Virus record (IMG/VR): IMGVR_UViG_3300009012_000001
Location: 1 to 56,988 of that record
Length of the DNA: 56,988 nt
Direction: 5' to 3' (one strand)
Source: a virus
Lineage: Duplodnaviria; Caudoviricetes
A model generated the notes under the pieces. That model was not told where the DNA came from and searched no databases. It was given only the letters and a program-made list of their open reading frames with translations. How positions within the stretch are numbered: position 1 is the stretch's first letter; every line of letters starts with the position of its first letter. Shown one piece after another: positions 1,721-33,451 of this stretch. A program made the position numbers and the translations under genes.

Positions 1721-3991
1721 CTATTTGAACCCTGGAGCCGCGAGCATTTCCGCGCGCCCGAGTTGTTCGGGCGTGATGAGGTCCGCTTCGTCGACCTGCA
1801 CGCCGACGGTGACGGGCACCAGCACGCTGCGGCAGTTGAAGTGGTTCGGCGGCGTGAGGCGGTCCAGTTCCGGCTCGTCCAGCGGGAAGACCTTGCCGTC
1901 CAAGAAGCGGCAGACCTCGGTGGTGCGGTCGTCAATGACGGCCGAATACATCATGCCGCGCACGAACCCCGCCAGTTCCGGGGCGCGCGCGGTCACGAGG
2001 CGCCCTTGGTTGAACGCCTCGGTCGCGTTCGTGCGTAGGATGGTTTCCAAGCGGAACGGGTCGACCACGTCGCCGTCGCGGATGAGGGTCGGGTCGCCAA
2101 TGTACGGCTCGAAAATATCGTGCAGTTTATGCATCGTATCGGATTGAGGTTCGCCAATTTTCAGCGCGTTGAGCAACACTTCCCGTGCTTGACCCAGCAA
2201 GCGGTTACTCAGTACGCCGGAAATATGGAGCACTTTCTGCGATAGCCAACGCAGGGCCTCGACTGGGACGAACCCGACGTCACCTTGAAACGTGCGCGGC
2301 AGTTCGGCACGCGCGGTGCCCTCGCCCAACCGATAGAGGGTTCGGACGAATTCGCGCAGGGTATCTTGGATGTCCCCGAAGCCCGACAATGCGAGGTCGG
2401 TTATGAACTTGCGGTTATCGGGACGGAAATTTCGTTCAACGGTAGCGAGCAGTTTGTCGCGCACGGCCCGGAACAGCGGGACGAGCGCCTGGCGCGTGCG
2501 CTCCTCCGACTGCGACAAGCCCGCCTCGATGCGGGCGTAGTTCGTGGCGCGGTCGTAGCGATACGGTTTTGCCACAATGGCCTTCGTGGCGGTGGCGGTG
2601 GCCTTGGCCGCGGCGGCGACCTCGGCCGGGACCGTGACGGTGGCGGCGTCGCCCTGGCCGTTCCCTCCCCCCGGCGCGGCCACGGGGGCGGCGGCGGCCT
2701 CCGCCTTGGCCGCGGCGGGCAGGGGCACGGTGCTGTCCGCCAGCGGCGGGAACTTCAGGATTTCGCGGATGTGCGTTTCGTCCTCGTCCTGCGGCCGGAC
2801 GACGCCGGCGCCGACGGCGGCGAGCCAGGCGTCCATCATCGCCTTGCGGTCGTATTCCGTGAGCGGGATGAACTGGAACCGCGGGTAGTCGTCGACGACG
2901 TAGTTCGCGTCCACCAAAGGCCGCACGACCTGCTCCGCCATGACGCGCTCCTCGATGTCGCGGCGGATTTTTTCGACGACGAGCATGAACACGTCGAAGT
3001 TGACCTTGGCCCGGGCGTAGGACCCCTGCGCCACGTCGGCGGTCAGGCCTAGGTGGCCCGGCATGAGGATGGCCCGGGCGATGGCCTGGTCGAAATGCTC
3101 CAGCGCGGGCACGAACTCCGACTGCGTCCGGCCCTGCACCGGGCTGCTCCAGATGTCCAGCGCATCCGCGCCGCCGGGGCGCGGCAGCAGGCCGTGCGTA
3201 GCCGCCTGCCAGTTCGTCACGACGGTCTTCATTTGCTCGACCTGCTCCGGCGTGTACCGCGCCGGGTCGTACTCGAAGAACAGCCCGGGCACGGCGTGGC
3301 GTTCCAGGTACATCAGGAACCACTTCACGACGTTGTCCTTGGCCCACCACCAGCGGTAGGCGGCCTCCAAGTCGGACCGACCGTAGATGTTGCTGAATTC
3401 CATGTCGTGGCTGTAGAGCACGAAGCGGTCGCGCGGCAGGCGCTTGGGGGCGTAGCCGACCTGCATCTGCAGGACGCCGTCCGGTTTGAGGTTGCCGAAT
3501 TCGTCCATGTCGAACAGGAAACTGTCCGGCCGCCGCGTTTTCAGCGCGCCGTACCAGACCTTCCCCGCGAAGTCGCCCGGCGGCGCGGGCGCCCAGACTT
3601 TCTCGGTGACGGAGAACCCGTAAATGAGCGCGCCCAGGATTTCCAGCAGGTCGTCCTCGACGGTCCCTTCCAGGTTGCGCAGGCACGCGTCGACGAACCG
3701 CGTGACCTCCCAGTCCTCGGCGAAGTCGCGCGGGCTTTCCACCGTCCAGCCCGACGCCATGACGGCGTGCTGCTTAAACGCGACGGCCGCCTTGACCTGG
3801 TCGTCCTGGCGCATCTGGTCAAACACGCGCAGGCCCTGGCGCGTGACAAGGATGGACGGGTTGTATTGCAGCCACGTCACGCCCGGCCAGATGCGGCGCG
3901 GGTCGGCGAGCGCGACCTCGCCCGTCGGCGGCGTGGGCGGGCGCTGGAACGTCCGCCACGCCAGGGACACCCGTTCGGCGAGGGTCGGCAT
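1721..3991 (-). CDS. Portal protein (Mu gp29/DUF935-like) fused to a Mu gpF-like minor head domain
   Basis: N-part ALIYGFSVTEKVW, YGRSDLEAAY, GSYARAKV; Ala-rich linker; C-part RLETILRTN, YSAVIDDRTTEVC, PPNHFNCRS; follows the terminase. Confidence 0.9.
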   Translation of the reverse strand: MPTLAERVSLAWRTFQRPPTPPTGEVALADPRRIWPGVTWLQYNPSILVTRQGLRVFDQMRQDDQVKAAVAFKQHAVMASGWTVESPRDFAEDWEVTRFVDACLRNLEGTVEDDLLEILGALIYGFSVTEKVWAPAPPGDFAGKVWYGALKTRRPDSFLFDMDEFGNLKPDGVLQMQVGYAPKRLPRDRFVLYSHDMEFSNIYGRSDLEAAYRWWWAKDNVVKWFLMYLERHAVPGLFFEYDPARYTPEQVEQMKTVVTNWQAATHGLLPRPGGADALDIWSSPVQGRTQSEFVPALEHFDQAIARAILMPGHLGLTADVAQGSYARAKVNFDVFMLVVEKIRRDIEERVMAEQVVRPLVDANYVVDDYPRFQFIPLTEYDRKAMMDAWLAAVGAGVVRPQDEDETHIREILKFPPLADSTVPLPAAAKAEAAAAPVAAPGGGNGQGDAATVTVPAEVAAAAKATATATKAIVAKPYRYDRATNYARIEAGLSQSEERTRQALVPLFRAVRDKLLATVERNFRPDNRKFITDLALSGFGDIQDTLREFVRTLYRLGEGTARAELPRTFQGDVGFVPVEALRWLSQKVLHISGVLSNRLLGQAREVLLNALKIGEPQSDTMHKLHDIFEPYIGDPTLIRDGDVVDPFRLETILRTNATEAFNQGRLVTARAPELAGFVRGMMYSAVIDDRTTEVCRFLDGKVFPLDEPELDRLTPPNHFNCRSVLVPVTVGVQVDEADLITPEQLGRAEMLAAPGFK

Positions 3992-4377
3992 CAGATGGCC
4001 ACGGCGTAGCCGCCCGCGATGAGGACGCCAGCCAAGTCGCGCCCGTCGGGCAGCGTGACGCTGGCCACGTAGCGGCCGAATGTGGTCACGTCGGGCACCG
4101 TCCGGACGACGCAGGGCGCGCCGACGGGGAGCACGGTCATCACGTAGGCTTTGCTGGCCAGCCCCGCCTCCTTCGTGGCGCCGGTGACTTCGGGCGCGTT
4201 CACGCCGAGCAACCGCACGGTCGCGTAGCGGTATTCGTTGAACCCCAAGTCGACCAAGAAATCATAGGTGTCCCCGTCCACGACGTGCCGGCAAATGGCG
4301 CGGTACGGCCCGAAGGCGTACAGGCCCGCCAACGACGGCGGGAACGCGGCGAATTCGGCGGGGAGGCGGTCGCTCAT
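3991..4377 (-). CDS. Thermonuclease (SNase-like)
   Basis: VVDGDT, VDLGF, VRLLGVNAPE, FGRYVA motifs; ATG 4377. Confidence 0.85.
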   Translation of the reverse strand: MSDRLPAEFAAFPPSLAGLYAFGPYRAICRHVVDGDTYDFLVDLGFNEYRYATVRLLGVNAPEVTGATKEAGLASKAYVMTVLPVGAPCVVRTVPDVTTFGRYVASVTLPDGRDLAGVLIAGGYAVAI

Positions 4378-6248: not shown

Positions 6249-6528
6249 AGTGGCGATGGATGACCTCGGAGTCCCCGGACATGTGGATGTCCCACGCGGC
6301 GCGGCCGTGCAGGCGGTCCAGCACGTCCCGCGCCGCCGCCAGCCGCACGGAATCCTGGTTAGAGGCTTGCATGGCCCGGATGAGCGTCGCGATGGCCAGC
6401 GGTTCCAATTGCCGCAGCGCCTCGCGGTAGGCCAAGCGCGGGCGGCCGCCTCGTTCCCCGCCCCGGCCGGACGGGTTCAGCGTGCCGTGGACCACGCGCC
6501 CCTGCTTGTCGCGCTGCACCGGGGTCAT
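6169..6528 (-). CDS. terS: Terminase small subunit
   Basis: RDKQGR..NPSGR..GRP, VRLAAARDVLDR..G; directly upstream of terL. Confidence 0.75.
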   Translation of the reverse strand: MTPVQRDKQGRVVHGTLNPSGRGGERGGRPRLAYREALRQLEPLAIATLIRAMQASNQDSVRLAAARDVLDRLHGRAAWDIHMSGDSEVIHRHYVAVFEPGGVHPDTTQPELGGPTKAH

Positions 6529-7598
6529 GGCGCCGCCGCGAGTTCCGCCTGCTGGCCCGTGTAGGATTCCCAGCGCGCGATGGCCACCGCGCACCAGCGG
6601 GGTTCAATATCCATGGCGTAGCAGGTGCGGCCCATCATCTGCGCGGCGATGAGCGTCGTGCCCGTGCCCACGAACGGGTCGTAGACGTCCCCGCGGTGGT
6701 TGCGCAGCGGGAACAGCATGCATTCCACGGGCTTCTGCGCGCTGTGGCCGCCGTCCACGTTCGGGTCGAGCGCAATCTCGCGCACCGTCGTTTCGGTGTG
6801 GTCGCCTATCCAGCCCGCGTCGTGCCCGTGCCGCACGGCGTACCAGTCCACGCGGTTGTCGGCCGTCACGGGCGCCACACGGCGGGCCGCGTACCATAAC
6901 GCCCCCTTCGCCGCCGCCTCGTTGCGCCAGCCGGCGTCGTACTCAACCCCGTAGGGCGGGTCGGTCACCATCAACGTCGGCACGGCCCCGTCGAGCAGTC
7001 GCGCCACGTCGGAGGCCGCCGTGGCGTCACCGCAGAACAGCCGATGCGGCCCCAACCGCCACAACTGCCCGACCTGCACGTCCGGGCCGACCCCGTCCGG
7101 GTTGGCCAGTTCGGGCGGCGGCGGCGTGAGTTGGCGCAGCAATTTGTCGATGTCATCGGCGGAGAACCCCGACAGCGTTTCGTCGATGTCCGACGCGCGC
7201 AGTTGCCTGAGGACCTCGCCCAACTTCGGCAGGTCCCATTCCCCCTGAATTTTGTTGAGCGCGACGTTGAGCGCCTGCTCCTGCGCCGGCGCGAGGTCGA
7301 CCACGCTGACGTCGACTTCACGGGCGCCCTGCTCCCGCAGAACCTTCAGACGCTGGTGGCCGCCGATGAGGCGGTTCGTGCGCTGGTTCCAGACCAACGG
7401 CTCCACGAACCCGAACGCCTCGATGCTGCGTTTCAGCGCGTCGTAGGCTGGGTCGCCGGGGCGCAGGTCCTTGCGCGGGTTGTAGGCGGCCGGGACGAGC
7501 GCGTCCAGCGGCATGCGCCGCAATTCGACCGTCCCCCAGGCTTTTGCCATGGTATTTGCTTTGGGATGCGGTTCCGTCACAGGTTGCGGTTCGCCCAT
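6525..7598 (-). CDS. ParB-like domain fused to an N6A/N4C DNA methyltransferase, apparently with an internal deletion
   Basis: YNPRK, IGGHQRL, HRLFCGD, TDPPYG, HSAQKP, DPFVGTGTT. Confidence 0.85.
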   Translation of the reverse strand: MGEPQPVTEPHPKANTMAKAWGTVELRRMPLDALVPAAYNPRKDLRPGDPAYDALKRSIEAFGFVEPLVWNQRTNRLIGGHQRLKVLREQGAREVDVSVVDLAPAQEQALNVALNKIQGEWDLPKLGEVLRQLRASDIDETLSGFSADDIDKLLRQLTPPPPELANPDGVGPDVQVGQLWRLGPHRLFCGDATAASDVARLLDGAVPTLMVTDPPYGVEYDAGWRNEAAAKGALWYAARRVAPVTADNRVDWYAVRHGHDAGWIGDHTETTVREIALDPNVDGGHSAQKPVECMLFPLRNHRGDVYDPFVGTGTTLIAAQMMGRTCYAMDIEPRWCAVAIARWESYTGQQAELAAAP

Positions 7599-7653
7599 TT
7601 CACGGCGGCCCAGACGAGCACCGCGACCACGGCGGCCAGGAGCCACCACCACG

Positions 7654-11209: not shown

Positions 11210-11377
11210 TCACTCCGTGTGCGGCCAGGATTGGCGGCACGCTGGGCAGACCCACGACCACCTTCGCCAGCCGCCGTGTTCTGGCCACAGGTAATGGAGA
11301 AACTCCGCCACGGTCCCGCAGGACGGGCAAACGTGCGTGGTGCGGTAGACCGCGTCGGGCAGGTCAGTCGGGGTCAT
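11210..11377 (-). CDS. Small zinc-ribbon protein
   Basis: CPSC..CPAC; ATGA overlap. Confidence 0.55.
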   Translation of the reverse strand: MTPTDLPDAVYRTTHVCPSCGTVAEFLHYLWPEHGGWRRWSWVCPACRQSWPHTE

Positions 11378-12633
11378 GGGAACAACGCCAGTTGTCCTTC
11401 CGGCCATGTAGGTGGCCGCTGGTTTTCCTCCGGCTCCGCCAAAATAGGGGTCGGGCCGCCTGCGACGACCGCGCCGTGGACGGCGGCGTCAACGGGCACG
11501 TCGGTGGCCGACTTTATGACAACCTCCAGTGGCTGCACCAAGTCTGCTTCCAGCGGCGCCAGACGTTGACGCATCAACGGGATGTAATCCGGCTGCAGGT
11601 CGATACCGATGGAGTTCCTGCCATTCTTCGCCGCAACGAGGAGCGTGGTCCCGCTGCCGGCGAATGGGTCGAGCACCGTCCCGCCAATCGGACACCCTGC
11701 GAGGATGCATGGGAAGACCAACGCTTGGGGGAATGTGGCGAAGTGCGCGTGGGAGAAGGCTTCCGTGGGAATCTCCCAGACGGTGCGTTTGTTGCGCACA
11801 TTCTGTACCTCGTCTGGATGATGGGTCCCGAATCCACGAGTACGCATCAGTTCCCTGTCCGCGCCCATAGTCAATTCGGGAGCCGTCAAGTTTTCTCGCG
11901 CTGCCCATGATTCGGATGAGTTCCACTCGCCAACCGACGGTTCCTGAATTGCCTCCGTATCGTAGTAGTATCTCTCCGCCTTCGCCAGCAAGAACAAGTA
12001 TTCGTGCGCCTTTGTCGGCCGGTCCGTCACGCTCTCCGGCATGGGGTTGGGCTTACTCCAAATGATGTCTGAGCGGAGCCACCAGCCATCCGCCTGGAGG
12101 GCGAAGGCCACGCGCCAGGGGATACCGACGAGGTCCTTTGGTTTGAGCCATGCATCGTGCTGTCCAGACGATACGGTTGAGGCGTACGAATCGCCCAGAT
12201 TGAGCCACAGTGTCCCGTCATCCCGCAGCACTCGCCGCACTCCCCTGAAAACCTCGACGAGATGATGGACGTAGAGGTCGAACGTGGGTTCGAGACCGAG
12301 GGAACCACGCCACGCATCGCATTTTTGGCAGCACGACGACGGGACGACAAACCGTTGATGCTCGTGGGGTTTCCCGCCTTCTAGCGTGCTTCCCTCGACA
12401 CCACCACCAGCCGATACTTTCTCGACATTGTCTTCCCATTGGTGGGAACATTCCATCTCCCCATCCCATATCTGCGCGACGAGTTTGTAGTCGCGCAATC
12501 CCCAGTACGGCGGCGAAGTCACCACGCAGTGGACCGATTCGTCAGGGATGGTTTTTAGTACGTCTAACACATGCCCGACGCAAATCGTGGCGCGAGAAAC
12601 AGTCTGGGAGAAGTCAGTCGGGTTCGATGCCAT
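11374..12633 (-). CDS. Beta-class N4-cytosine/N6-adenine DNA methyltransferase
   Basis: VTSPPYW, WLNLGDSY, IIWSKPNPMPESV, HFATFP, DPFAGSGTT. Confidence 0.92.
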   Translation of the reverse strand: MASNPTDFSQTVSRATICVGHVLDVLKTIPDESVHCVVTSPPYWGLRDYKLVAQIWDGEMECSHQWEDNVEKVSAGGGVEGSTLEGGKPHEHQRFVVPSSCCQKCDAWRGSLGLEPTFDLYVHHLVEVFRGVRRVLRDDGTLWLNLGDSYASTVSSGQHDAWLKPKDLVGIPWRVAFALQADGWWLRSDIIWSKPNPMPESVTDRPTKAHEYLFLLAKAERYYYDTEAIQEPSVGEWNSSESWAARENLTAPELTMGADRELMRTRGFGTHHPDEVQNVRNKRTVWEIPTEAFSHAHFATFPQALVFPCILAGCPIGGTVLDPFAGSGTTLLVAAKNGRNSIGIDLQPDYIPLMRQRLAPLEADLVQPLEVVIKSATDVPVDAAVHGAVVAGGPTPILAEPEENQRPPTWPEGQLALFP

Positions 12634-13352: not shown

Positions 13353-13550
13353 TCAGGCGAGTTCATCAGGGTGGACCTCGATGACCGTGCGCTGTTCGAC
13401 GCGGTGGACGACGTTCTCGCGGCCGCCCGCATTGAAGTTCCCGAAATGCATCCCCGCCCGCCGCAGCGCGTCCGCTTCCGTGTCCGCCTCGGCGGTCCAC
13501 CCGCAGCCCTCGTGCAGGCAGGCCAACAGGTACAGGCGGCGGATTCTCAT
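13353..13550 (-). CDS. Small hypothetical protein
   Basis: ATGA coupling; CLHEGCGW..H. Confidence 0.5.
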   Translation of the reverse strand: MRIRRLYLLACLHEGCGWTAEADTEADALRRAGMHFGNFNAGGRENVVHRVEQRTVIEVHPDELA

Positions 13551-13837
13551 TCCGCGGCGGTCAAGTACCGTTGCCACGCCGCCGTGAGGGCGTCCAAATC
13601 GTCTGCCATCTTGACGGCCGACAAGTCGTAGGACGTCGTGAACCCGTACTGCCGCGCGTCCCCGTCCAGGCCCAGGACAGCCTTGCCGGTGGGATAATCC
13701 CCGTAGAGTTGGCCCAGGACGCAGCGCCAGCCGGAATGGATGTCCAACGACGCCGCGTCCACCTCCGCCCGCCACCCCGGCCGCCGCGCGTCCAGCAACG
13801 CCGCCCCCGCCCGCACCCGTTCCTCGACCGTCTTCAT
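13547..13837 (-). CDS. Phage hypothetical protein (paralog of 25571-25876)
   Basis: RVRAGAALLD..PGW..CVLGQLYG..LGL..YGF..AW. Confidence 0.7.
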   Translation of the reverse strand: MKTVEERVRAGAALLDARRPGWRAEVDAASLDIHSGWRCVLGQLYGDYPTGKAVLGLDGDARQYGFTTSYDLSAVKMADDLDALTAAWQRYLTAAE

Positions 13838-14004
13838 CGTCGTTCCCCCTTGTCGCCCGGTTTGTCCAACGTCAGCATCACCAACGCGCCCGGGATGGCG
13901 TCCTCCCGCGCGACGACCACGACGCCCCGCGCGGCGCACTGGCGGATGAACTCGTCCACGTCGACCGTCCGCGTGTCCACGGCCACCTTCATCGGGAATT
14001 TCAT
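13834..14004 (-). CDS. Small hypothetical protein
   Basis: ATGA coupling to the Ro60 stop. Confidence 0.5.
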   Translation of the reverse strand: MKFPMKVAVDTRTVDVDEFIRQCAARGVVVVAREDAIPGALVMLTLDKPGDKGERR

Positions 14005-15443
14005 TCCGCCGCGACGACCGGGGCTGCCATGTCCGTGCCATCCTTCGCCGCCGCGTAATCGCCCTCGGCCTCCTCCACGCGAATCCAATCTACGATACGG
14101 TCGCTGAACCCGTTCACGCGCGTCCAGCCCTGCCGCGTGTCCAGCGCGGGCGCGTAGGGCGCCACGTTGACCACGTAGGCGGCCCGGGTCCACGCCTTCC
14201 GGATGCCGTCATGCGCCTGTTCGTCCGTCACGACAACAACGCGGTCGAACCCAGCGGTCTTCGGCGCGATGGCCTCCAATGCCGCGTCCAGGTACGTCGC
14301 GCCGTGCCCCTGGCTGCGGTGGATGCCTTCCAGCAGGCCGAACCCGCGCAGGTTCGCCACCTCGACCGCCGCGTTGCTGAACGTCCAGACCCGGCATTCC
14401 TCGCACAGTTCGCGCAGCAGGATGGCGAGCGCCCCCGCCGTGTCGATGCGGGTCGGGACGAAGGACGGGGCGTAGCCGTGGCGCAGGCGCGCCCGCAGGC
14501 CGCCCGTGGCCATGGGGGAATCCATCGACTCGGACACGTCGACGACCAGCGCGGTGCGGCCCGCCAATGTCGGCCGTCCGGCCAGCGTCGCCACCATCGC
14601 TCGGTCCAAGGCGTCCGCGAACTTCGGGACCGCCCGGTACGCCGACACGAACTGGAACGGCAACGCCCGCGCCGTGCGGACCCGTGCCGGGTTGGTCAGC
14701 GCCTCCTCGACGATGGGCGTCGGGACGTCAGCGGCTTCCATGTTGCGCAGGTTGCGCAGCAAAGCCAGGTAGCCCAGCGACCGCTCGCGCAGCAGGCGTT
14801 CCCATGTCGCCTTCTTGTCCGCCCCGCCCGACAGCGCGACCTCCCAGGTATCCGGCGGCTCCAGTTCGCCCGCGAGCAGCGACTTCCACAGCGCCGACTG
14901 TGCCTCGTCGGCTGGCTTCGGGTGCGCCAGGCGCAGCACGTCGCGCAGCCGCACGACGCCCTCGCCGCCGCGGTCGTACTTCGCCAACTGGTAGGCGTCG
15001 AACTTGCCGAACGCCAGCGCCAAGCCGCGCTTGACCTGCGCGCTCAGTTTGGCCGGGGCGTTCGGCGTCTTGCCGTCGCCCCAGTAGAGGGCCAGGAATT
15101 CGGTGAGTTCGTCCGCGCGCCGGACGACCTGGGCCAAGGTGTCCCCGACCAGCCGCCCGCGGGACAGGCGCGCCAACTGCCGGACCAGCCACAGCGGGAC
15201 GTGGCGCAAGGAGAGGTCCGTCCGCGCCGACACCGCGATGGCCGCGACCGCGGCGGGGTCGACCCGCTCGCACAAATCCGCGATGCGGGTCGCGATGTCC
15301 GCGCCCGATTCATAGTAGGTGTCTTCCCAGAGCAGGCAGGACGCGACGGCGCGCCGCAGTTCCAGTTCTGGGGATTGCGCCATCGCCCGCCCGCCTTCGT
15401 GCGTCCGCGGCCGCGCCGCGGTCGGTCGGTTCGTCTTGGCCAT
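14001..15443 (-). CDS. rsr: Ro60/TROVE-domain RNA-binding protein with C-terminal vWA domain (480 aa)
   Basis: THEGG, CLLWEDTYYESG, VRRADELTEFLA, FDAYQLAKY, LRDVLRLAHPKP, TWEVALS, ALLRNLRN, MIDAS DVSES and TDEQ; AAGGGGG RBS. Confidence 0.93.
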   Translation of the reverse strand: MAKTNRPTAARPRTHEGGRAMAQSPELELRRAVASCLLWEDTYYESGADIATRIADLCERVDPAAVAAIAVSARTDLSLRHVPLWLVRQLARLSRGRLVGDTLAQVVRRADELTEFLALYWGDGKTPNAPAKLSAQVKRGLALAFGKFDAYQLAKYDRGGEGVVRLRDVLRLAHPKPADEAQSALWKSLLAGELEPPDTWEVALSGGADKKATWERLLRERSLGYLALLRNLRNMEAADVPTPIVEEALTNPARVRTARALPFQFVSAYRAVPKFADALDRAMVATLAGRPTLAGRTALVVDVSESMDSPMATGGLRARLRHGYAPSFVPTRIDTAGALAILLRELCEECRVWTFSNAAVEVANLRGFGLLEGIHRSQGHGATYLDAALEAIAPKTAGFDRVVVVTDEQAHDGIRKAWTRAAYVVNVAPYAPALDTRQGWTRVNGFSDRIVDWIRVEEAEGDYAAAKDGTDMAAPVVAAE

Positions 15444-15468
15444 GTCGTTTACGCCCCCTTGAATTTTT

Positions 15469-15556
15469 GCTGGCGGGGGAAAGGCGGACGGGGGTATCCG
15501 GGTGTCACCCCGGACCCTTCTGCGACGAAGTATCCCCGGCCTGCGCCACCGCCAAC
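15469..15556 (-). ncRNA. Putative Y RNA (YrlA-like, no tRNA-like domain), copy 2
   Basis: Terminal helix GUUGGCGG-U-GG/CC-CCGCCAGC; shares GUGGCGCAG, GGAUACUUCGUC and CGCCUUU(U)CCC with copy 1; directly upstream of Ro60. Confidence 0.75.
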
Positions 15557-15573
15557 GTTGGCCTGCGATGAAA

Positions 15574-15665
15574 ACCACCCGACGGGAAAAGGCGAACCCG
15601 GAGCGCCCCTTGCGGGGCATCGCGGTCAAGACGAAGTATCCGAATTCTGCGCCACGGCGGATGGC
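15574..15665 (-). ncRNA. Putative Y RNA (YrlA-like, no tRNA-like domain), copy 1
   Basis: Terminal helix GCCAUCCGCCG-U-GG/CC-CGUCGGGUGGU, inner stem GAAUUCGG/CCGGGUUC, GCCCC-GCAA-GGGGC hairpin; begins at the predicted TSS. Confidence 0.75.
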
Positions 15666-15672
15666 AGGTAGA

Positions 15673-15701
15673 ATATTACCTTATCTACCACGGGGCGTCA
15701 A
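15673..15701 (-). promoter_or_regulatory. Sigma70-type promoter of the Y RNA-Ro60 operon
   Basis: TTGACG-N17-TAATAT, overlapped by an inverted GGTAGA..TCTACC pair. Confidence 0.75.
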
Positions 15702-16039
15702 GAGGGGTCGTACCACCGCCGCCACCAGGGGATGGGTCTGGGGCGCGGGCGCCGGCGCCGCTTCCCCGACGCGCGGTTCTGGTAGGGCGGTGGGGGCATC
15801 CCCAGCGGCGGGTCGCGGAAGGCGGCCCACACCTCCGGGTCGACGCCCCACAGGCGGGCCAGGGCGTCGCGTTCCGCGCGCGCGCCGTCGAACTCGCGCG
15901 CCATTTGCTGGCGCAGCCCGTCCGGCGCCCCGGCCTCCAGCACACAGAGCAGCGCGACTTCCTCCATCGTGTACGAAGGTTTGTCCGCCAGCGGGAGCGC
16001 GGCGCGGAACAACCGCCACCACCGGCCGCGCGCGGGCAT
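15698..16039 (-). CDS. Hypothetical protein
   Basis: TAATG coupling to the recombinase stop. Confidence 0.5.
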   Translation of the reverse strand: MPARGRWWRLFRAALPLADKPSYTMEEVALLCVLEAGAPDGLRQQMAREFDGARAERDALARLWGVDPEVWAAFRDPPLGMPPPPYQNRASGKRRRRPRPRPIPWWRRWYDPS

Positions 16040-16872
16040 TAGAATGGCAACGCCTCCACCGCCGCGCGCGTCATGCGCGCCGACACGTGCGTGTAGATTT
16101 GGGTCGTAGCGATGCTGGCGTGCCCGAGTAGTTCCTGCACCACGCGGATGTCCGCCCCGCCCTCCAACGCGGCCGTGGCGAACGCGTGCCGCAGACTGTG
16201 CGGGTTCCACCGCCGCCCCAGCGCGCGCAGGGTGGCGCGGTAGCAGACCGCCTTGACCGTGGACGGGGACATCAACCGTGGCCGACCCACGCCGCGTCGA
16301 CCGGGGAACAATGGCCCGTCCGTGCGCCCCAGCGCGGCGATATGGTCCTCCAGCACCGCCAACGTGTCGCCGCTCACCGGCACGAGCCGTTCCCGGTTGC
16401 CTTTCCCCAGGACGCGCAGTTGCCGCTGCCCGCGCAGGACGTCCGCGACCTGCAGGCTGCGCGCCTCGGACGCGCGCAGGCCGCAGCGGGCCAGCAGCGT
16501 CAGCAACGCGCGGTGCCACGGGTTCTTCGTCCGGTCCAGCAGGGTCTTCACGTCGTCTGACGACGGGCAGCGCGGCAGGCGACGCGGCACGCGCGGGGCC
16601 TCCACGGCGGCGAACGGGTTGGAGGGGAACGCGGACGACGCGGCGAGGAATTTGCCGAACGACCGCAGGCAGGCGACGCGACGGGCCACCGACGACGCGG
16701 CGTTCCCGCGCGCGCGCTGCGACGCGACCCAGGACGCGGCCGCCTCCGGCGCGGCCCGGCGCCGGGCGTGCCGCACGAACTCCAGCAGGTCGCGTCGGTA
16801 TTCCGCGATGGTGCGCGGGCTCGCACCCCGCACCCCCAGCCACGCGAGGTAGGACCGGATGTGCCGCCGCAT
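16039..16872 (-). CDS. XerC/D-like tyrosine recombinase/integrase
   Basis: SAM-like N-domain; GLRASE, GKGNRERLVP, HSLRHAFAT, LLGHASIATTQIYTH. Confidence 0.93.
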   Translation of the reverse strand: MRRHIRSYLAWLGVRGASPRTIAEYRRDLLEFVRHARRRAAPEAAASWVASQRARGNAASSVARRVACLRSFGKFLAASSAFPSNPFAAVEAPRVPRRLPRCPSSDDVKTLLDRTKNPWHRALLTLLARCGLRASEARSLQVADVLRGQRQLRVLGKGNRERLVPVSGDTLAVLEDHIAALGRTDGPLFPGRRGVGRPRLMSPSTVKAVCYRATLRALGRRWNPHSLRHAFATAALEGGADIRVVQELLGHASIATTQIYTHVSARMTRAAVEALPF

Positions 16873-32639: not shown

Positions 32640-32836
32640 CTGGAAAATCCTCGTTATCGCTAACGAGATTGGACTATATCTTACTGCGAGATTCCGCAGC
32701 CCCCGCATGTAGTCTCTGAGGGGTCCCGATGGACTTCCCTGCTGATTGGCCGCACCCGACGATTGTCACCGACTCCGGTACGTCGGGATACCCGGCTGTT
32801 CCAGCATATAGCGGGGTTACGAGGCCAACTTATCCG
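32640..32836 (-). ncRNA. ORF-less group I self-splicing intron (197 nt)
   Basis: P UAUAUGCUGGAA, Q AAUCAGCAGG, R UCAGAGACUACA, S AAGAUAUAGUCC; P1 CGAGGU/GCCUCG with a U-G pair at the splice site; P9 CUCGUUA-GCGA-UAACGAG; terminal G at 32640. Confidence 0.93.
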
Positions 32837-32908
32837 ACCTCGACCTGATTCATTTGGGCCGCCGTGAGCACTTGGCCCACGCTAGAAAGTCTGGAATGAA
32901 TACGCCAT
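32837..32908 (-). CDS. Tail fibre exon 1 (MAYSFQTF/SVGQVLTAAQMNQVEV), broken by one extra nucleotide
   Basis: ATG 32908 after GGAGG; TTC TAG at 32887-32882 needs a +1 shift to reach the spliced frame. Confidence 0.6.
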
Positions 32909-32914
32909 CCCAGG

Positions 32915-33451
32915 TCAACGCCTCCATCCCCACGCAAACTCCGCGGCGGTCTTGGCGTGTTTTCGAAGGTTGCACGACGAACAGGCGCAGCAGATGTTGT
33001 CTGGCCAATTCGTCCCGCCGCGGGCCAATGGAATCTTGTGGTCTACATGAAAACGCCCATGCAATTGCCGCCAACAATAGAAACACTGTGCGCGTTGTGT
33101 CGCGTAGATACGCGCGACATCGTGGATTCCGTACCAACCAATCGCCTGCGCCTTGCGGGCTCGCCGATAGCGACGACGCGCACGCAGGCGCGATTCAACA
33201 CGCAACCTCGTGGCATACCGCCTTCGGTAACGACGTTGACTTTCCAATCGGCGACGAGGATACCGCTGACGGTATCGTGCCGAAGCCATCCTATTCGCAG
33301 CGCGGATTTGTTCTGGATGTCGTGCCTTCAACAATCGCCATGCCTTGCGTCCACAGGCGCGGCATGATGGGCATAATCCGTCGTACCTCTGTCTGTCGCG
33401 GGAATATGCGACAAATGGTTTCCAACGGCGGCATTTCGTGCAACGTTTCAT
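32915..33451 (-). CDS. Free-standing HNH homing endonuclease with N-terminal zinc finger
   Basis: KRCTKC..CRAC; CFYC..HVDHKIPLARGGTN..N..ACSSCNLRK. Confidence 0.9.
   Translation of the reverse strand: MKRCTKCRRWKPFVAYSRDRQRYDGLCPSCRACGRKAWRLLKARHPEQIRAANRMASARYRQRYPRRRLESQRRYRRRYATRLRVESRLRARRRYRRARKAQAIGWYGIHDVARIYATQRAQCFYCWRQLHGRFHVDHKIPLARGGTNWPDNICCACSSCNLRKHAKTAAEFAWGWRR

What the first reader, a model, noticed from the sequence alone, without database searches (positions are those of the whole stretch)
14001..15701. Phage Ro60 with two tandem minimal Y RNAs that lack the tRNA-like module
Seen: promoter, then a 92-nt RNA, an 88-nt RNA and an intact Ro60. Both RNAs share GUGGCGCAG, GGAUACUUCGUC and CGCCUUU(U)CCC. 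Their terminal helices differ in sequence but both pair and carry a bulged U, which is natural covariation. Where YrlA RNAs have D/T-arm tRNA mimicry there is only a single hairpin. Known: bacterial Ro60 binds Y RNAs encoded beside it, tethers PNPase, is often linked to rtcB, and occurs in some phages. No rtcB is seen here. Inference: a stripped-down phage Ro RNP that may redirect host RNA decay or act as a decoy in RNA-damage defence.
Basis: partly seen in the sequence, partly recalled or inferred. Interest (0 to 1): 0.82.

Follow-up and report, generated by a model that had tools for sequence, protein, structure and literature searches.

The report
Phage Ro60 with two minimal Y RNAs
A soil phage carries a Ro60 RNA-binding protein gene preceded by two small Y-RNA genes that lack the usual tRNA-like part; this is real, but it is a new example of an arrangement already described in other phages and bacteria.

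Summary
On the minus strand of a complete 56,988-bp phage genome there is a sigma-70-like promoter (15701-15673). It is followed by two tandem structured RNAs (about 15665-15574 and 15556-15469) and an intact 480-aa TROVE/Ro60 gene (15443-14001).

A covariance model built only from 51 units beside Ro60 genes in other genomes finds exactly these two copies (53.2 and 52.9 bits; next best 18.1). The shared three-helix structure is about 90% paired across 36 and 51 units, against 31-49% when the partners are slid.

Neither copy has a T arm or D arm. Rfam YrlA and tRNA give no match at E<=10, and no RtcB gene is present.

The novelty is low:
- The closest solved protein is Thermus phage phiLo phiRo60, published in 2025 with two adjacent Y-RNA-like RNAs and host PNPase binding.
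- Y RNAs without a tRNA-like module (YrlB, Yrn2) were described in 2014.
- By my motif scan, 9 of 42 related loci lack T/D arms in the sequence upstream, and the trait is scattered on the Ro60 tree.

Expression, RNA ends and Ro60 binding are untested. Verdict: a new member of a known kind, with modest interest.

The parts
15673..15701 (-). Sigma-70-like promoter TTGACG-17-TAATAT. The predicted start falls at about 15666-15665, which is the first base of Y RNA 1.
   Evidence: 2 overlapping matches against 0.1 expected. Sequence. Function is inferred, not shown.
15574..15665 (-). Y RNA 1 (about 92 nt, ends inferred). Order of elements: terminal helix P1, unpaired U, GGCG:CGCC (P2), CAG, helix P3, UACUUCGUC loop, a weak hairpin, a GCAA-capped GC hairpin, then a UUUUCC bulge on the 3' strand. 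A run of UUUU follows the RNA.
   Evidence: Model hits at 15660..15579: R1 62.2 bits and the independent R2 52.9 bits. Folds. Alignment.
15469..15556 (-). Y RNA 2 (about 88 nt, ends inferred). It has the same P1/U/P2/CAG/P3/UACUUCGUC layout. Its inner domain is a CUUC...GAAG hairpin plus a 7-bp GC hairpin. The 3' bulge is UUUCCC.
   Evidence: Model hits at 15554..15471: R1 63.7 bits and the independent R2 53.2 bits. Folds.
14001..15443 (-). Ro60 (TROVE + vWA) gene, 480 aa. AAGGGGG lies about 10 nt before the ATG. The DVSESM and TDEQ motifs align with the corresponding vWA motifs of phiLo phiRo60.
   Evidence: translation; PF05731, 7.9e-18; phrog_850 RNA-binding protein, 1.1e-38; 9KOP/9L5Y, E=1.5e-32, residues 12-456 aligned to 21-481.
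13834..14004 (-). 56-aa ORF whose ATG overlaps the Ro60 stop codon (ATGA). It may belong to the same transcript. Function unknown.
   Evidence: Sequence. No Pfam or PHROG match. No homologue in 45 related loci. Whether it belongs to the system is uncertain.
13547..13837 (-). 96-aa ORF whose ATG overlaps the stop of the 56-aa ORF (ATGA). Function unknown.
   Evidence: Sequence. No family match. No homologue in related loci. Whether it belongs to the system is uncertain.

Best explanation
This is a phage-encoded Ro60-Y RNA ribonucleoprotein module.

One promoter would drive a transcript that begins with Y RNA 1. It continues through Y RNA 2 and then encodes Ro60, and perhaps two small overlapping ORFs. 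Host RNases would release the two ~90-nt RNAs, as happens for the polycistronic Y RNAs of M. smegmatis and D. radiodurans.

Each RNA would be held by Ro60 through its conserved basal module. That module is the terminal helix, an unpaired U, GGYG-NAG on the 5' strand, and a U-rich/UUCC bulge on the 3' strand.

The distal part is the invariant UACUUC loop plus simple hairpins, standing where YrlA has its T/acceptor/D tRNA mimic. It would contact an effector, most likely the host's PNPase. The phage would thereby change host RNA turnover during infection or lysogeny.

Shown here: the gene order, the family membership of protein and RNAs, the covarying structure, and the absence of a tRNA-like module.

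Inferred: transcription, processing, Ro60 binding, the PNPase partner and the biological effect.
For: Protein:
- TROVE domain.
- Full-length match to the solved phiLo phiRo60 at E=1.5e-32.
- 98 phage records hold relatives.

RNAs:
- The independent model R2 finds only these two copies in the genome, at 53.2 and 52.9 bits, with the next hit at 18.1.
- Model R1 gives 51 hits at E<=0.001 in 19 of 22 bacterial/MAG Ro60 loci. All are upstream of the gene and on its strand.
- R1 gives 36 hits in 14 of 21 further sources.

Structure:
- 88.9% of cells paired in 36 units, against 35.7-48.9% when slid. Covariation score 0.736 against at most 0.144.
- 90.2% paired in 51 units, against 31.5-45.4% when slid. 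Covariation score 0.761 against at most 0.122.
- P1 and P3 show changes on both sides in 6 of 6 and 8 of 8 pairs.

Invariant positions:
- In the 36-unit alignment, U-GG-G, AG and UACUUC on the 5' side and UUCC on the 3' side are nearly invariant.
- These correspond to the published GNCGAAN0-1G and YUAY motifs (PMC4201824) and to the conserved UA kink (bioRxiv 10.1101/312249).

Promoter: it abuts RNA1.

Precedent for the mechanism: phiLo phiRo60 binds two Y-like RNAs and forms a ternary complex with host PNPase that slows it (PMC12135203, passages). Y RNAs are processed from polycistronic precursors upstream of rsr in M. smegmatis and D. radiodurans (PMC4201824).
Against: - There are no expression data. 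No RNA run holds the stretch. The RNA ends are inferred from helices only.
- Thermodynamic stability is unremarkable. RNA1 has z=-1.35, with 21 of 200 shuffles folding as well. RNA2 has z=-2.35, with 4 of 200.
- The family-consensus fold is 2.5-3.8 kcal/mol above the unconstrained MFE.
- Both copies read CGCA where the published motif reads CGAA. In phiLo, changing any CGAA base to U raised KD 3-4 fold. This position is variable in the family (U 19, A 9, C 7 of 36).
- Both copies have U where 28 of 36 units have G in the 3' UGUUCC.
- P2 varies on one side only (G:C/G:U, C:G/U:G), so its pairing is less well supported.
- In A4, the count of pairs with changes on both sides is not above shuffles (102 of 500).
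- P1 boundaries in the seed alignment were chosen by complementarity, so seed P1 statistics are partly circular. A3 and A4 were fitted to the model.
- There is no terminator between the RNAs and the gene, so a purely cis-acting role is not excluded.
- A promoter-like site next to the first unit was found in only 1 of 4 relatives scanned.
- The host, and therefore its PNPase, is unknown.
Confidence: 0.78

Rival explanations
1. The two elements are cis-acting parts of the Ro60 mRNA leader. They could be autoregulatory Ro60-binding sites, or 5' structures that stabilise the mRNA. On this reading they are not released as free small RNAs.
For: They lie between the promoter and the start codon with no intrinsic terminator on that strand. 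The 229-nt leader can also fold as one unit.
Against: - Homologous units occur in arrays of 1-6.
- Some arrays lie more than 1 kb from the gene (L028, L029).
- In phiLo and Microcystis phage Mvi-JY20 the units lie downstream of the gene.
- Related Y RNAs upstream of rsr are processed to discrete Rsr-bound RNAs (PMC4201824).
- The two roles are not mutually exclusive.
Confidence: 0.12
2. They are decaying remnants of YrlA-type units that lost the tRNA-like module and no longer function.
For: - About four in five related loci keep at least one T/D-arm unit (33 of 42 by the pattern scan).
- Both copies deviate from consensus at two conserved positions: CGCA instead of CGAA/CGUA, and U instead of G in UGUUCC.
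Against: - Both copies keep every other near-invariant position and all three helices.
- The two copies differ in P1 and P3 yet stay paired.
- Short units of the same design are common partners of long units in other arrays and score as well or better.
- Arrays made only of minimal units recur on at least 5 separate branches of the Ro60 tree, next to intact Ro60 genes.
Confidence: 0.06
3. This is a DNA-level repeat, for example integrase or regulator binding sites near the integrase gene, and not an RNA.
For: A tyrosine integrase gene (16039-16872, minus strand) lies about 340 bp upstream.
Against: - Compensatory base-pair changes occur across 87 units.
- The hits are strand-specific and always on the Ro60 strand.
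- The association is with Ro60 genes, including in loci where no integrase was noted.
Confidence: 0.02

Closest known systems
Thermus phage phiLo phiRo60 with Yrl1/Yrl2 (PMC12135203, NAR 2025; PDB 9KOP, 9L5Y)
   Same: - It is the closest solved protein: E=1.5e-32 over the full length, and the only two PDB sequences matched at E<=0.01.
- It is a phage with no PNPase and no tRNA-like Y RNA.
- Two simple stem-bulge-stem Y-like RNAs lie next to the gene.
- Proposed action is through host PNPase (passages).
   Different: - Only about 31% identity by tblastn, and a very long branch on the tree.
- The phiLo RNAs were picked by a CGAA motif upstream of the gene. The window's RNAs read CGCA and belong to the family defined by UACUUC and a UUCC 3' bulge.
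- In phiLo my models score that family's units downstream of the gene instead.
- I could not see the phiLo RNA sequences. They are in figures or supplements.
YrlA / YrlB of Salmonella Typhimurium and Mycobacterium smegmatis, and YrlA-like RNAs of more than 250 bacteria and 22 phages (PMC4201824; Rfam RF02553)
   Same: - Encoded within 4 kb of Ro60 on the same strand.
- A 5' motif like GNCGAAN0-1G.
- A conserved UA (YUAY) after the second helix.
- Tandem genes, with a polycistronic precursor upstream of rsr in M. smegmatis.
- YrlB-type RNAs without a full tRNA mimic are described.
   Different: - No match to RF02553 at E<=10.
- No T arm, D arm or acceptor-like stem.
[quoted passage not shown] This phage has none.
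- The paper finds only the 5' strand recognisable. This family also conserves a 3'-strand UGUUCC.
- No rtcB linkage.
Deinococcus radiodurans Rsr-Yrn1/Yrn2-PNPase (RYPER)
   Same: - A Ro60 ring with Y RNAs encoded upstream.
- The Y RNA acts as a tether to PNPase.
- Yrn2 is a long hairpin without a tRNA module (PMC4201824).
   Different: - It is a cellular, stress-induced system.
- D. radiodurans Rsr (2NVO) was not matched by phmmer at E<=0.01.
- No Rfam Y_RNA match here.
Y RNA arrays of Caulobacter phage CcrColossus and Xanthomonas phages
   Same: - Ro60 at 45-47% identity.
- Same basal RNA module. R1 hits: 6 units in L019 and 5 in L018 at E<=0.001.
   Different: Those arrays mix short units with 124-148-nt units that carry T and D arms. 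The window has two short units only.

Membership tests
Ro60 / TROVE protein family (phage phiRo60 type) | TROVE domain | tested here: met
   PF05731 at E=7.9e-18, 65.3 bits against a cut-off of 23. phrog_850 RNA-binding protein at 1.1e-38.
Ro60 / TROVE protein family (phage phiRo60 type) | Full-length similarity to a Ro60 of solved ring structure | tested here: met
   9KOP/9L5Y at E=1.5e-32, residues 12-456 of 480 aligned to 21-481 of 500. Xenopus and Deinococcus Ro60 were not reached at E<=0.01.
Ro60 / TROVE protein family (phage phiRo60 type) | C-terminal vWA domain with a MIDAS-type DxSxS motif | tested here: met
   DVSESM aligns with DVSGSM of phiLo, and TDEQ aligns with TDEQ (alignment). 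The naming of the motif as MIDAS is recalled, and is also stated in PMC12135203.
Ro60 / TROVE protein family (phage phiRo60 type) | Ring fold; binds Y RNA | not tested
   No structure prediction was run. Binding needs an experiment.
YrlA (Rfam RF02553) | Match to the family covariance model | tested here: not met
   No hit at E<=10 in 15300-15800 or in the whole genome. The same model does hit CcrColossus units at 42.3, 30.5 and 29.9 bits, below the gathering score of 69.
YrlA (Rfam RF02553) | T arm, acceptor-like stem and D arm (tRNA-like domain) | tested here: not met
   No tRNA hit (RF00005) at E<=10. ARAGORN found 0 genes. No T-arm or D-arm pattern in the 1.6 kb upstream of the gene.
YrlA (Rfam RF02553) | 5' motif GNCGAAN0-1G | tested here: inconclusive
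   Both copies read GGCGCAG, one mismatch. In the 36-unit alignment that position is U 19, A 9, C 7.
YrlA (Rfam RF02553) | Within 4 kb of Ro60 on the same strand | tested here: met
   The RNAs lie 26 and 131 nt upstream of the Ro60 ATG, on the same strand.
Bacterial/phage Y RNAs in the broad sense (YrlB, Yrn2, phiLo Yrl: no tRNA module) | Long stem formed by the 5' and 3' ends that carries the Ro60-binding motif | tested here: met
   P1/P2 with an invariant U-GG-G...AG. P1 is 92.6-94.4% paired with changes on both sides in 6 of 6 pairs.
Bacterial/phage Y RNAs in the broad sense (YrlB, Yrn2, phiLo Yrl: no tRNA module) | Homologous units recur beside Ro60 genes in other genomes | tested here: met
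   51 hits in 19 of 22 genome loci. 36 hits in 14 of 21 other sources. The independent model R2 recovers the window copies.
Bacterial/phage Y RNAs in the broad sense (YrlB, Yrn2, phiLo Yrl: no tRNA module) | Discrete stable RNA bound by Ro60 | not testable with these tools
   No RNA run holds the stretch. Needs RIP or EMSA.
Metazoan-type Y RNA (Rfam RF00019) | Match to the family model | tested here: not met
   The scan of all Rfam families at E<=10 over 15300-15800 gave only three chance-level hits, none to a Y RNA family.

The most novel reading that the evidence does not exclude
Phage Ro60 systems whose arrays contain only Y RNAs without a tRNA module form a functional subclass. I saw such arrays here, in L031/L041 and in L008, and in L003, L032 and phiLo as far as the sequence in hand shows. 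In this subclass the invariant UACUUC loop, with a simple GNRA-type hairpin, is the real effector-binding determinant, and the tRNA mimic is dispensable. This would imply either an effector that does not recognise the tRNA elbow, or a purely inhibitory, gate-like role on Ro60 or PNPase.
Probability: 0.25. Interest if true: 0.5.

Novelty: new member of a known kind. Interest (0 to 1): 0.3.

Why it matters
This adds a compact, complete example from a temperate soil phage: one promoter, two ~90-nt RNAs and a 480-aa Ro60.

The comparison set adds four points:
- One basal Y RNA design is shared by about 87 units beside Ro60 genes in phages, prophages and MAG contigs. It consists of P1, an unpaired U, GGYG-NAG, P3, a UACUUC loop and a 3' UGUUCC bulge.
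- The 3' strand of the Ro60-binding module is conserved in this clade. The 2014 survey found only the 5' strand recognisable.
- Arrays with no tRNA-like unit recur on separate branches. The published generalisation that every species has at least one tRNA-like Y RNA therefore has exceptions.
- Several 'tRNA' annotations next to phage Ro60 genes fall inside Y RNA units.

None of this overturns current understanding. It supplies a ready model and a simple test system for asking what the non-tRNA part of a Y RNA does.

Tried and rejected
- Rfam at gathering score over the whole window gave only a group I intron. At E<=10 over the locus it gave only three chance-level hits to unrelated families.
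- blastn of the RNA region against 50,697 phage records gave one 24-nt chance match.
- RNAalifold on the two copies alone gave a poor consensus. I replaced it with a hand-set structure tested on 14, 36 and 51 sequences.
- Sequencing runs: no RNA holder was listed. Four soil-metagenome DNA runs from three studies hold all or part of the stretch, and two of them may be the source of this DNA.
- Laying their contigs gave no variant inside the RNAs and nothing on expression or ends.
- tblastn of six neighbouring ORFs against all fetched loci gave no hit at E<=0.01, so there is no conserved protein partner. One of the six (13353-13775) looks spurious by composition.
- Promoter scans of four relatives found a site next to the first unit only in L008. 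L003, L005 and L031 had none by the scanner's rule.
- The Rfam check of loci with 'all-minimal' arrays at E<=0.05 missed T/D modules that are visible by eye in L006 and L007. I therefore used a pattern scan instead. That scan in turn misses the divergent module of L005.
- I considered a link to the host clade. The closest Ro60 relatives by identity are on Acidobacteriota/Terriglobia MAG contigs. On the tree the window's protein is not nested in that clade, so I name no host.
- No structure prediction, complex prediction or large protein-database search was run. The PDB sequence match made them unnecessary for the question.
- Supplements of PMC4201824 (lists of phages and candidates) and of PMC12135203 (Yrl sequences) were not seen. 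They may bear on whether this RNA design or the phiLo downstream units are already listed.
- Whether the all-minimal state is in print rests on two full-text searches and on the papers read.
Full report
WHAT IS THERE

The window is a complete virus record of 56,988 bp with direct terminal repeats and 66% G+C. It encodes a portal protein, a large terminase, DNA methyltransferases and a tyrosine integrase. It is therefore a temperate tailed phage. Four soil-metagenome DNA runs from three studies hold all or part of it.

The finding lies on the minus strand. Reading 5' to 3' on that strand:
- A promoter-like site, TTGACG-17-TAATAT, lies at 15701..15673. The scan gave 2 overlapping matches against 0.1 expected from shuffles.
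- RNA1 is 15665..15574, 92 nt, and is followed by UUUU.
- RNA2 is 15556..15469, 88 nt.
- AAGGGGG follows, and then the ATG of a 480-aa ORF at 15443..14001.
- The -10 hexamer ends 8 nt before the first base of RNA1's terminal helix.

The ORF has a TROVE domain (E=7.9e-18). It aligns over residues 12-456 with the solved Ro60 of Thermus phage phiLo (9KOP/9L5Y, E=1.5e-32), including the DxSxS and TDEQ motifs of the vWA domain. The gene is intact.

Two small ORFs of 56 and 96 aa follow it, each with an ATGA stop/start overlap. They have no family match and no homologues in related loci.

IS IT MORE THAN CHANCE?

The two RNAs share 51 invariant columns of 100.

Related Ro60 loci from IMG/VR (15 loci) carry units of the same design upstream of the gene.

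From 14 short units, two of them from the window, I set a three-helix structure:
- P1 is the terminal helix.
- An unpaired U follows.
- P2 pairs GGYG with CGYY.
- NAG follows.
- P3 is a helix of about 8 bp that ends in GG(U/A).
- An invariant UACUUC opens the distal domain.
- On the 3' strand, a UGUUCC bulge sits between P2 and P1.

On the seed alignment, 90.8% of cells pair, against 39.0-49.6% when the partners are slid. The P1 ends of the seed were picked by complementarity, so that part is circular.

The model R1 then found 36 units in 14 of 21 sources. It found 51 units in 19 of 22 loci from bacterial genomes and MAGs. All are on the Ro60 strand. Every one of the 51 lies upstream of the gene.

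Pairing and covariation on these larger sets:

| Set | Units | Cells paired | Paired when slid | Covariation score | Score when slid |
|---|---|---|---|---|---|
| A3 | 36 | 88.9% | 35.7-48.9% | 0.736 | at most 0.144 |
| A4 | 51 | 90.2% | 31.5-45.4% | 0.761 | at most 0.122 |

P1 and P3 show changes on both sides in all their pairs. P2 changes on one side only. These alignments were fitted to the model, which favours the structure.

The cleanest control is R2. I built it from the 51 genome-derived units alone. In the whole window it finds exactly the two copies, at 53.2 and 52.9 bits (E about 5e-12). The next hit scores 18.1 bits.

Thermodynamic stability alone is not impressive, with z of -1.35 and -2.35. 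The consensus fold is 2.5-3.8 kcal/mol above the MFE.

DO THEY LACK THE tRNA-LIKE MODULE?

Yes.
- Rfam's YrlA model (RF02553) and tRNA model give nothing at E<=10 in the locus.
- YrlA gives nothing at E<=10 in the whole genome.
- ARAGORN finds no tRNA-like gene.
- A T-arm/D-arm pattern scan is empty.

As positive controls, RF02553 does hit CcrColossus units at 42.3, 30.5 and 29.9 bits. R1 does recover long T/D-bearing units in relatives at 41-52 bits. A third, YrlA-type unit with this basal module would therefore have been seen.

The distal domain of each window RNA is the UACUUCGUC stretch, followed by one weak hairpin and one GC-rich hairpin. The GC-rich hairpin is GCAA-capped in RNA1.

No RtcB gene is present.

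WHAT IT IS

Two motifs correspond to published Y RNA features:
- The 5' motif U-GGCG-CAG corresponds to the GNCGAAN0-1G motif that Chen et al. tie to Ro60 recognition.
- The UA of UACUUC corresponds to their conserved YUAY, and to the conserved UA kink in the YrlA structure (PMC4201824, whole Results/Discussion read; bioRxiv 10.1101/312249, passages).

These are therefore Y RNAs of the bacterial/phage lineage, in the short form. The long form is YrlA.

Short Y RNAs without a full tRNA mimic are known: S. Typhimurium and M. smegmatis YrlB, and D. radiodurans Yrn2. A phage Ro60 with two simple Y-like RNAs that binds host PNPase and slows it in vitro was published for phiLo (PMC12135203, passages).

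The most likely mechanism is therefore a phage Ro60-Y RNA particle. It would be made from one transcript and processed by host RNases. It would act on host RNA decay, probably through PNPase. Only the anatomy is shown here. The rest is inference from those precedents.

HOW UNUSUAL IS THE ALL-SHORT ARRAY?

In 42 sources examined, a strict T-arm/D-arm pattern was absent upstream of Ro60 in 9:
- the window
- L031
- L041
- L008
- L003
- L032
- L012
- L017
- L005

Three qualifications apply. L005 does carry a divergent module. L003 and L032 have only about 400 nt of upstream sequence. L031 and L041 are Terriglobia MAG contigs with the same two-short-unit layout as the window.

On a Ro60 tree of 37 rows, the 7 'all-short' rows need 6 changes, and at least 5 are forced by well-supported branches. 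The label is not clustered, with 172 of 500 shuffles as low. Rows left out were L016 (the window itself), L011, L014 and L015 (duplicates or partials), L009, L041, L042, L044 and L045 (partial matches), and L007 (frame closes after 129 aa).

The state is therefore a recurrent minority. It contradicts the 2014 generalisation that each species has at least one tRNA-like Y RNA. That paper itself notes Ro60-bearing genomes without a YrlA candidate.

POINTS AGAINST, OR OPEN

- There is no evidence of expression or of RNA ends.
- Both copies differ from the family consensus at two conserved positions: CGCA, and U for G in the 3' bulge.
- There is no terminator before the gene, so a cis-acting leader role cannot be excluded.
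- The host is unknown. The best Ro60 identities (50-59%) are on Acidobacteriota contigs, but the window's protein branches outside that clade.

VERDICT

The functional part is plausible by precedent but untested. It is a new member of a known kind. Interest is modest. The comparative by-products may be useful to specialists: the family model, 3'-strand conservation, recurrent all-short arrays, probable tRNA mis-annotations and the phiLo downstream units.

Noticed in passing
L017 (Thermus phage phiLo, MH673673.1) 3984-4047 and 4175-4252: Both family models score Y RNA units immediately DOWNSTREAM of the phiRo60 gene. R1 gives 30.3 and 16.4 bits. R2 gives 25.4 bits for the first unit. They overlap the annotated hypothetical CDS phiLo_25, and neither has a CGAA motif. 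Neither model scores anything upstream, where the 2025 paper places Yrl1/Yrl2. The published RNA sequences were not visible to me, so I cannot say whether they are the same elements.
   Followed up: partly
L018 2292-2359 (Xanthomonas phage 10KY502B 'tRNA-Thr'); L019 1673-1740 (CcrColossus 'tRNA-Gln'): The 10KY502B tRNA annotation just upstream of the phage Ro60 gene falls inside a strong model-defined Y RNA unit (R1 hit 2288-2419). The CcrColossus annotation overlaps only sub-threshold matches (YrlA 1708-1804 at 30.5 bits; R1 1669-1733 at 15.3 bits). They are probably the tRNA-like modules of YrlA-type RNAs rather than tRNA genes.
   Followed up: partly
window 32650-32865 (-) and 32915-33451 (-): A group I intron match (RF00028, 53.5 bits against a gathering score of 50) has an HNH endonuclease ORF (PF01844, 2.9e-11) directly upstream on the same strand. 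This is likely a mobile intron. The interrupted host gene was not identified.
   Followed up: partly
L007 3001-4779: The Ro60 match spans 1,779 nt for 460 query residues, and the frame read from the start closes after 129 aa. The gene appears to hold an insertion of about 400 nt (intron, intein or frameshift). This was not examined.
   Followed up: no
window 14001-14004 and 13834-13837 (-): ATGA stop/start overlaps chain Ro60 to a 56-aa ORF and then to a 96-aa ORF, which suggests translational coupling. Neither has a family match or a homologue beside other Ro60 genes.
   Followed up: yes
window 11374-12633 (-), 6525-7652 (-), 16039-16872 (-): There are two DNA methyltransferases. One is N6_N4_Mtase at 4.4e-47. 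The other matches ParB-like and methyltransferase PHROGs. A tyrosine integrase lies about 340 bp upstream of the Y RNA promoter on the same strand.
   Followed up: no
L021 (Microcystis phage Mvi-JY20) 3892-3959 and 3970-4102; L022 (crAss001) 3948-4029: In these phages the Y RNA units lie downstream of the Ro60 gene. R2 gives 41.8 and 32.0 bits for Mvi-JY20, and a weak 18.7 bits for crAss001. The position of the array relative to the gene is therefore not fixed.
   Followed up: partly
A2 columns 69-81 (units W1, L002b, L003a, L004a, L007a): Many short units carry a second hairpin capped by a GNRA tetraloop (GCAA or GAAA) at the place where long units have the T/acceptor/D module.
   Followed up: no
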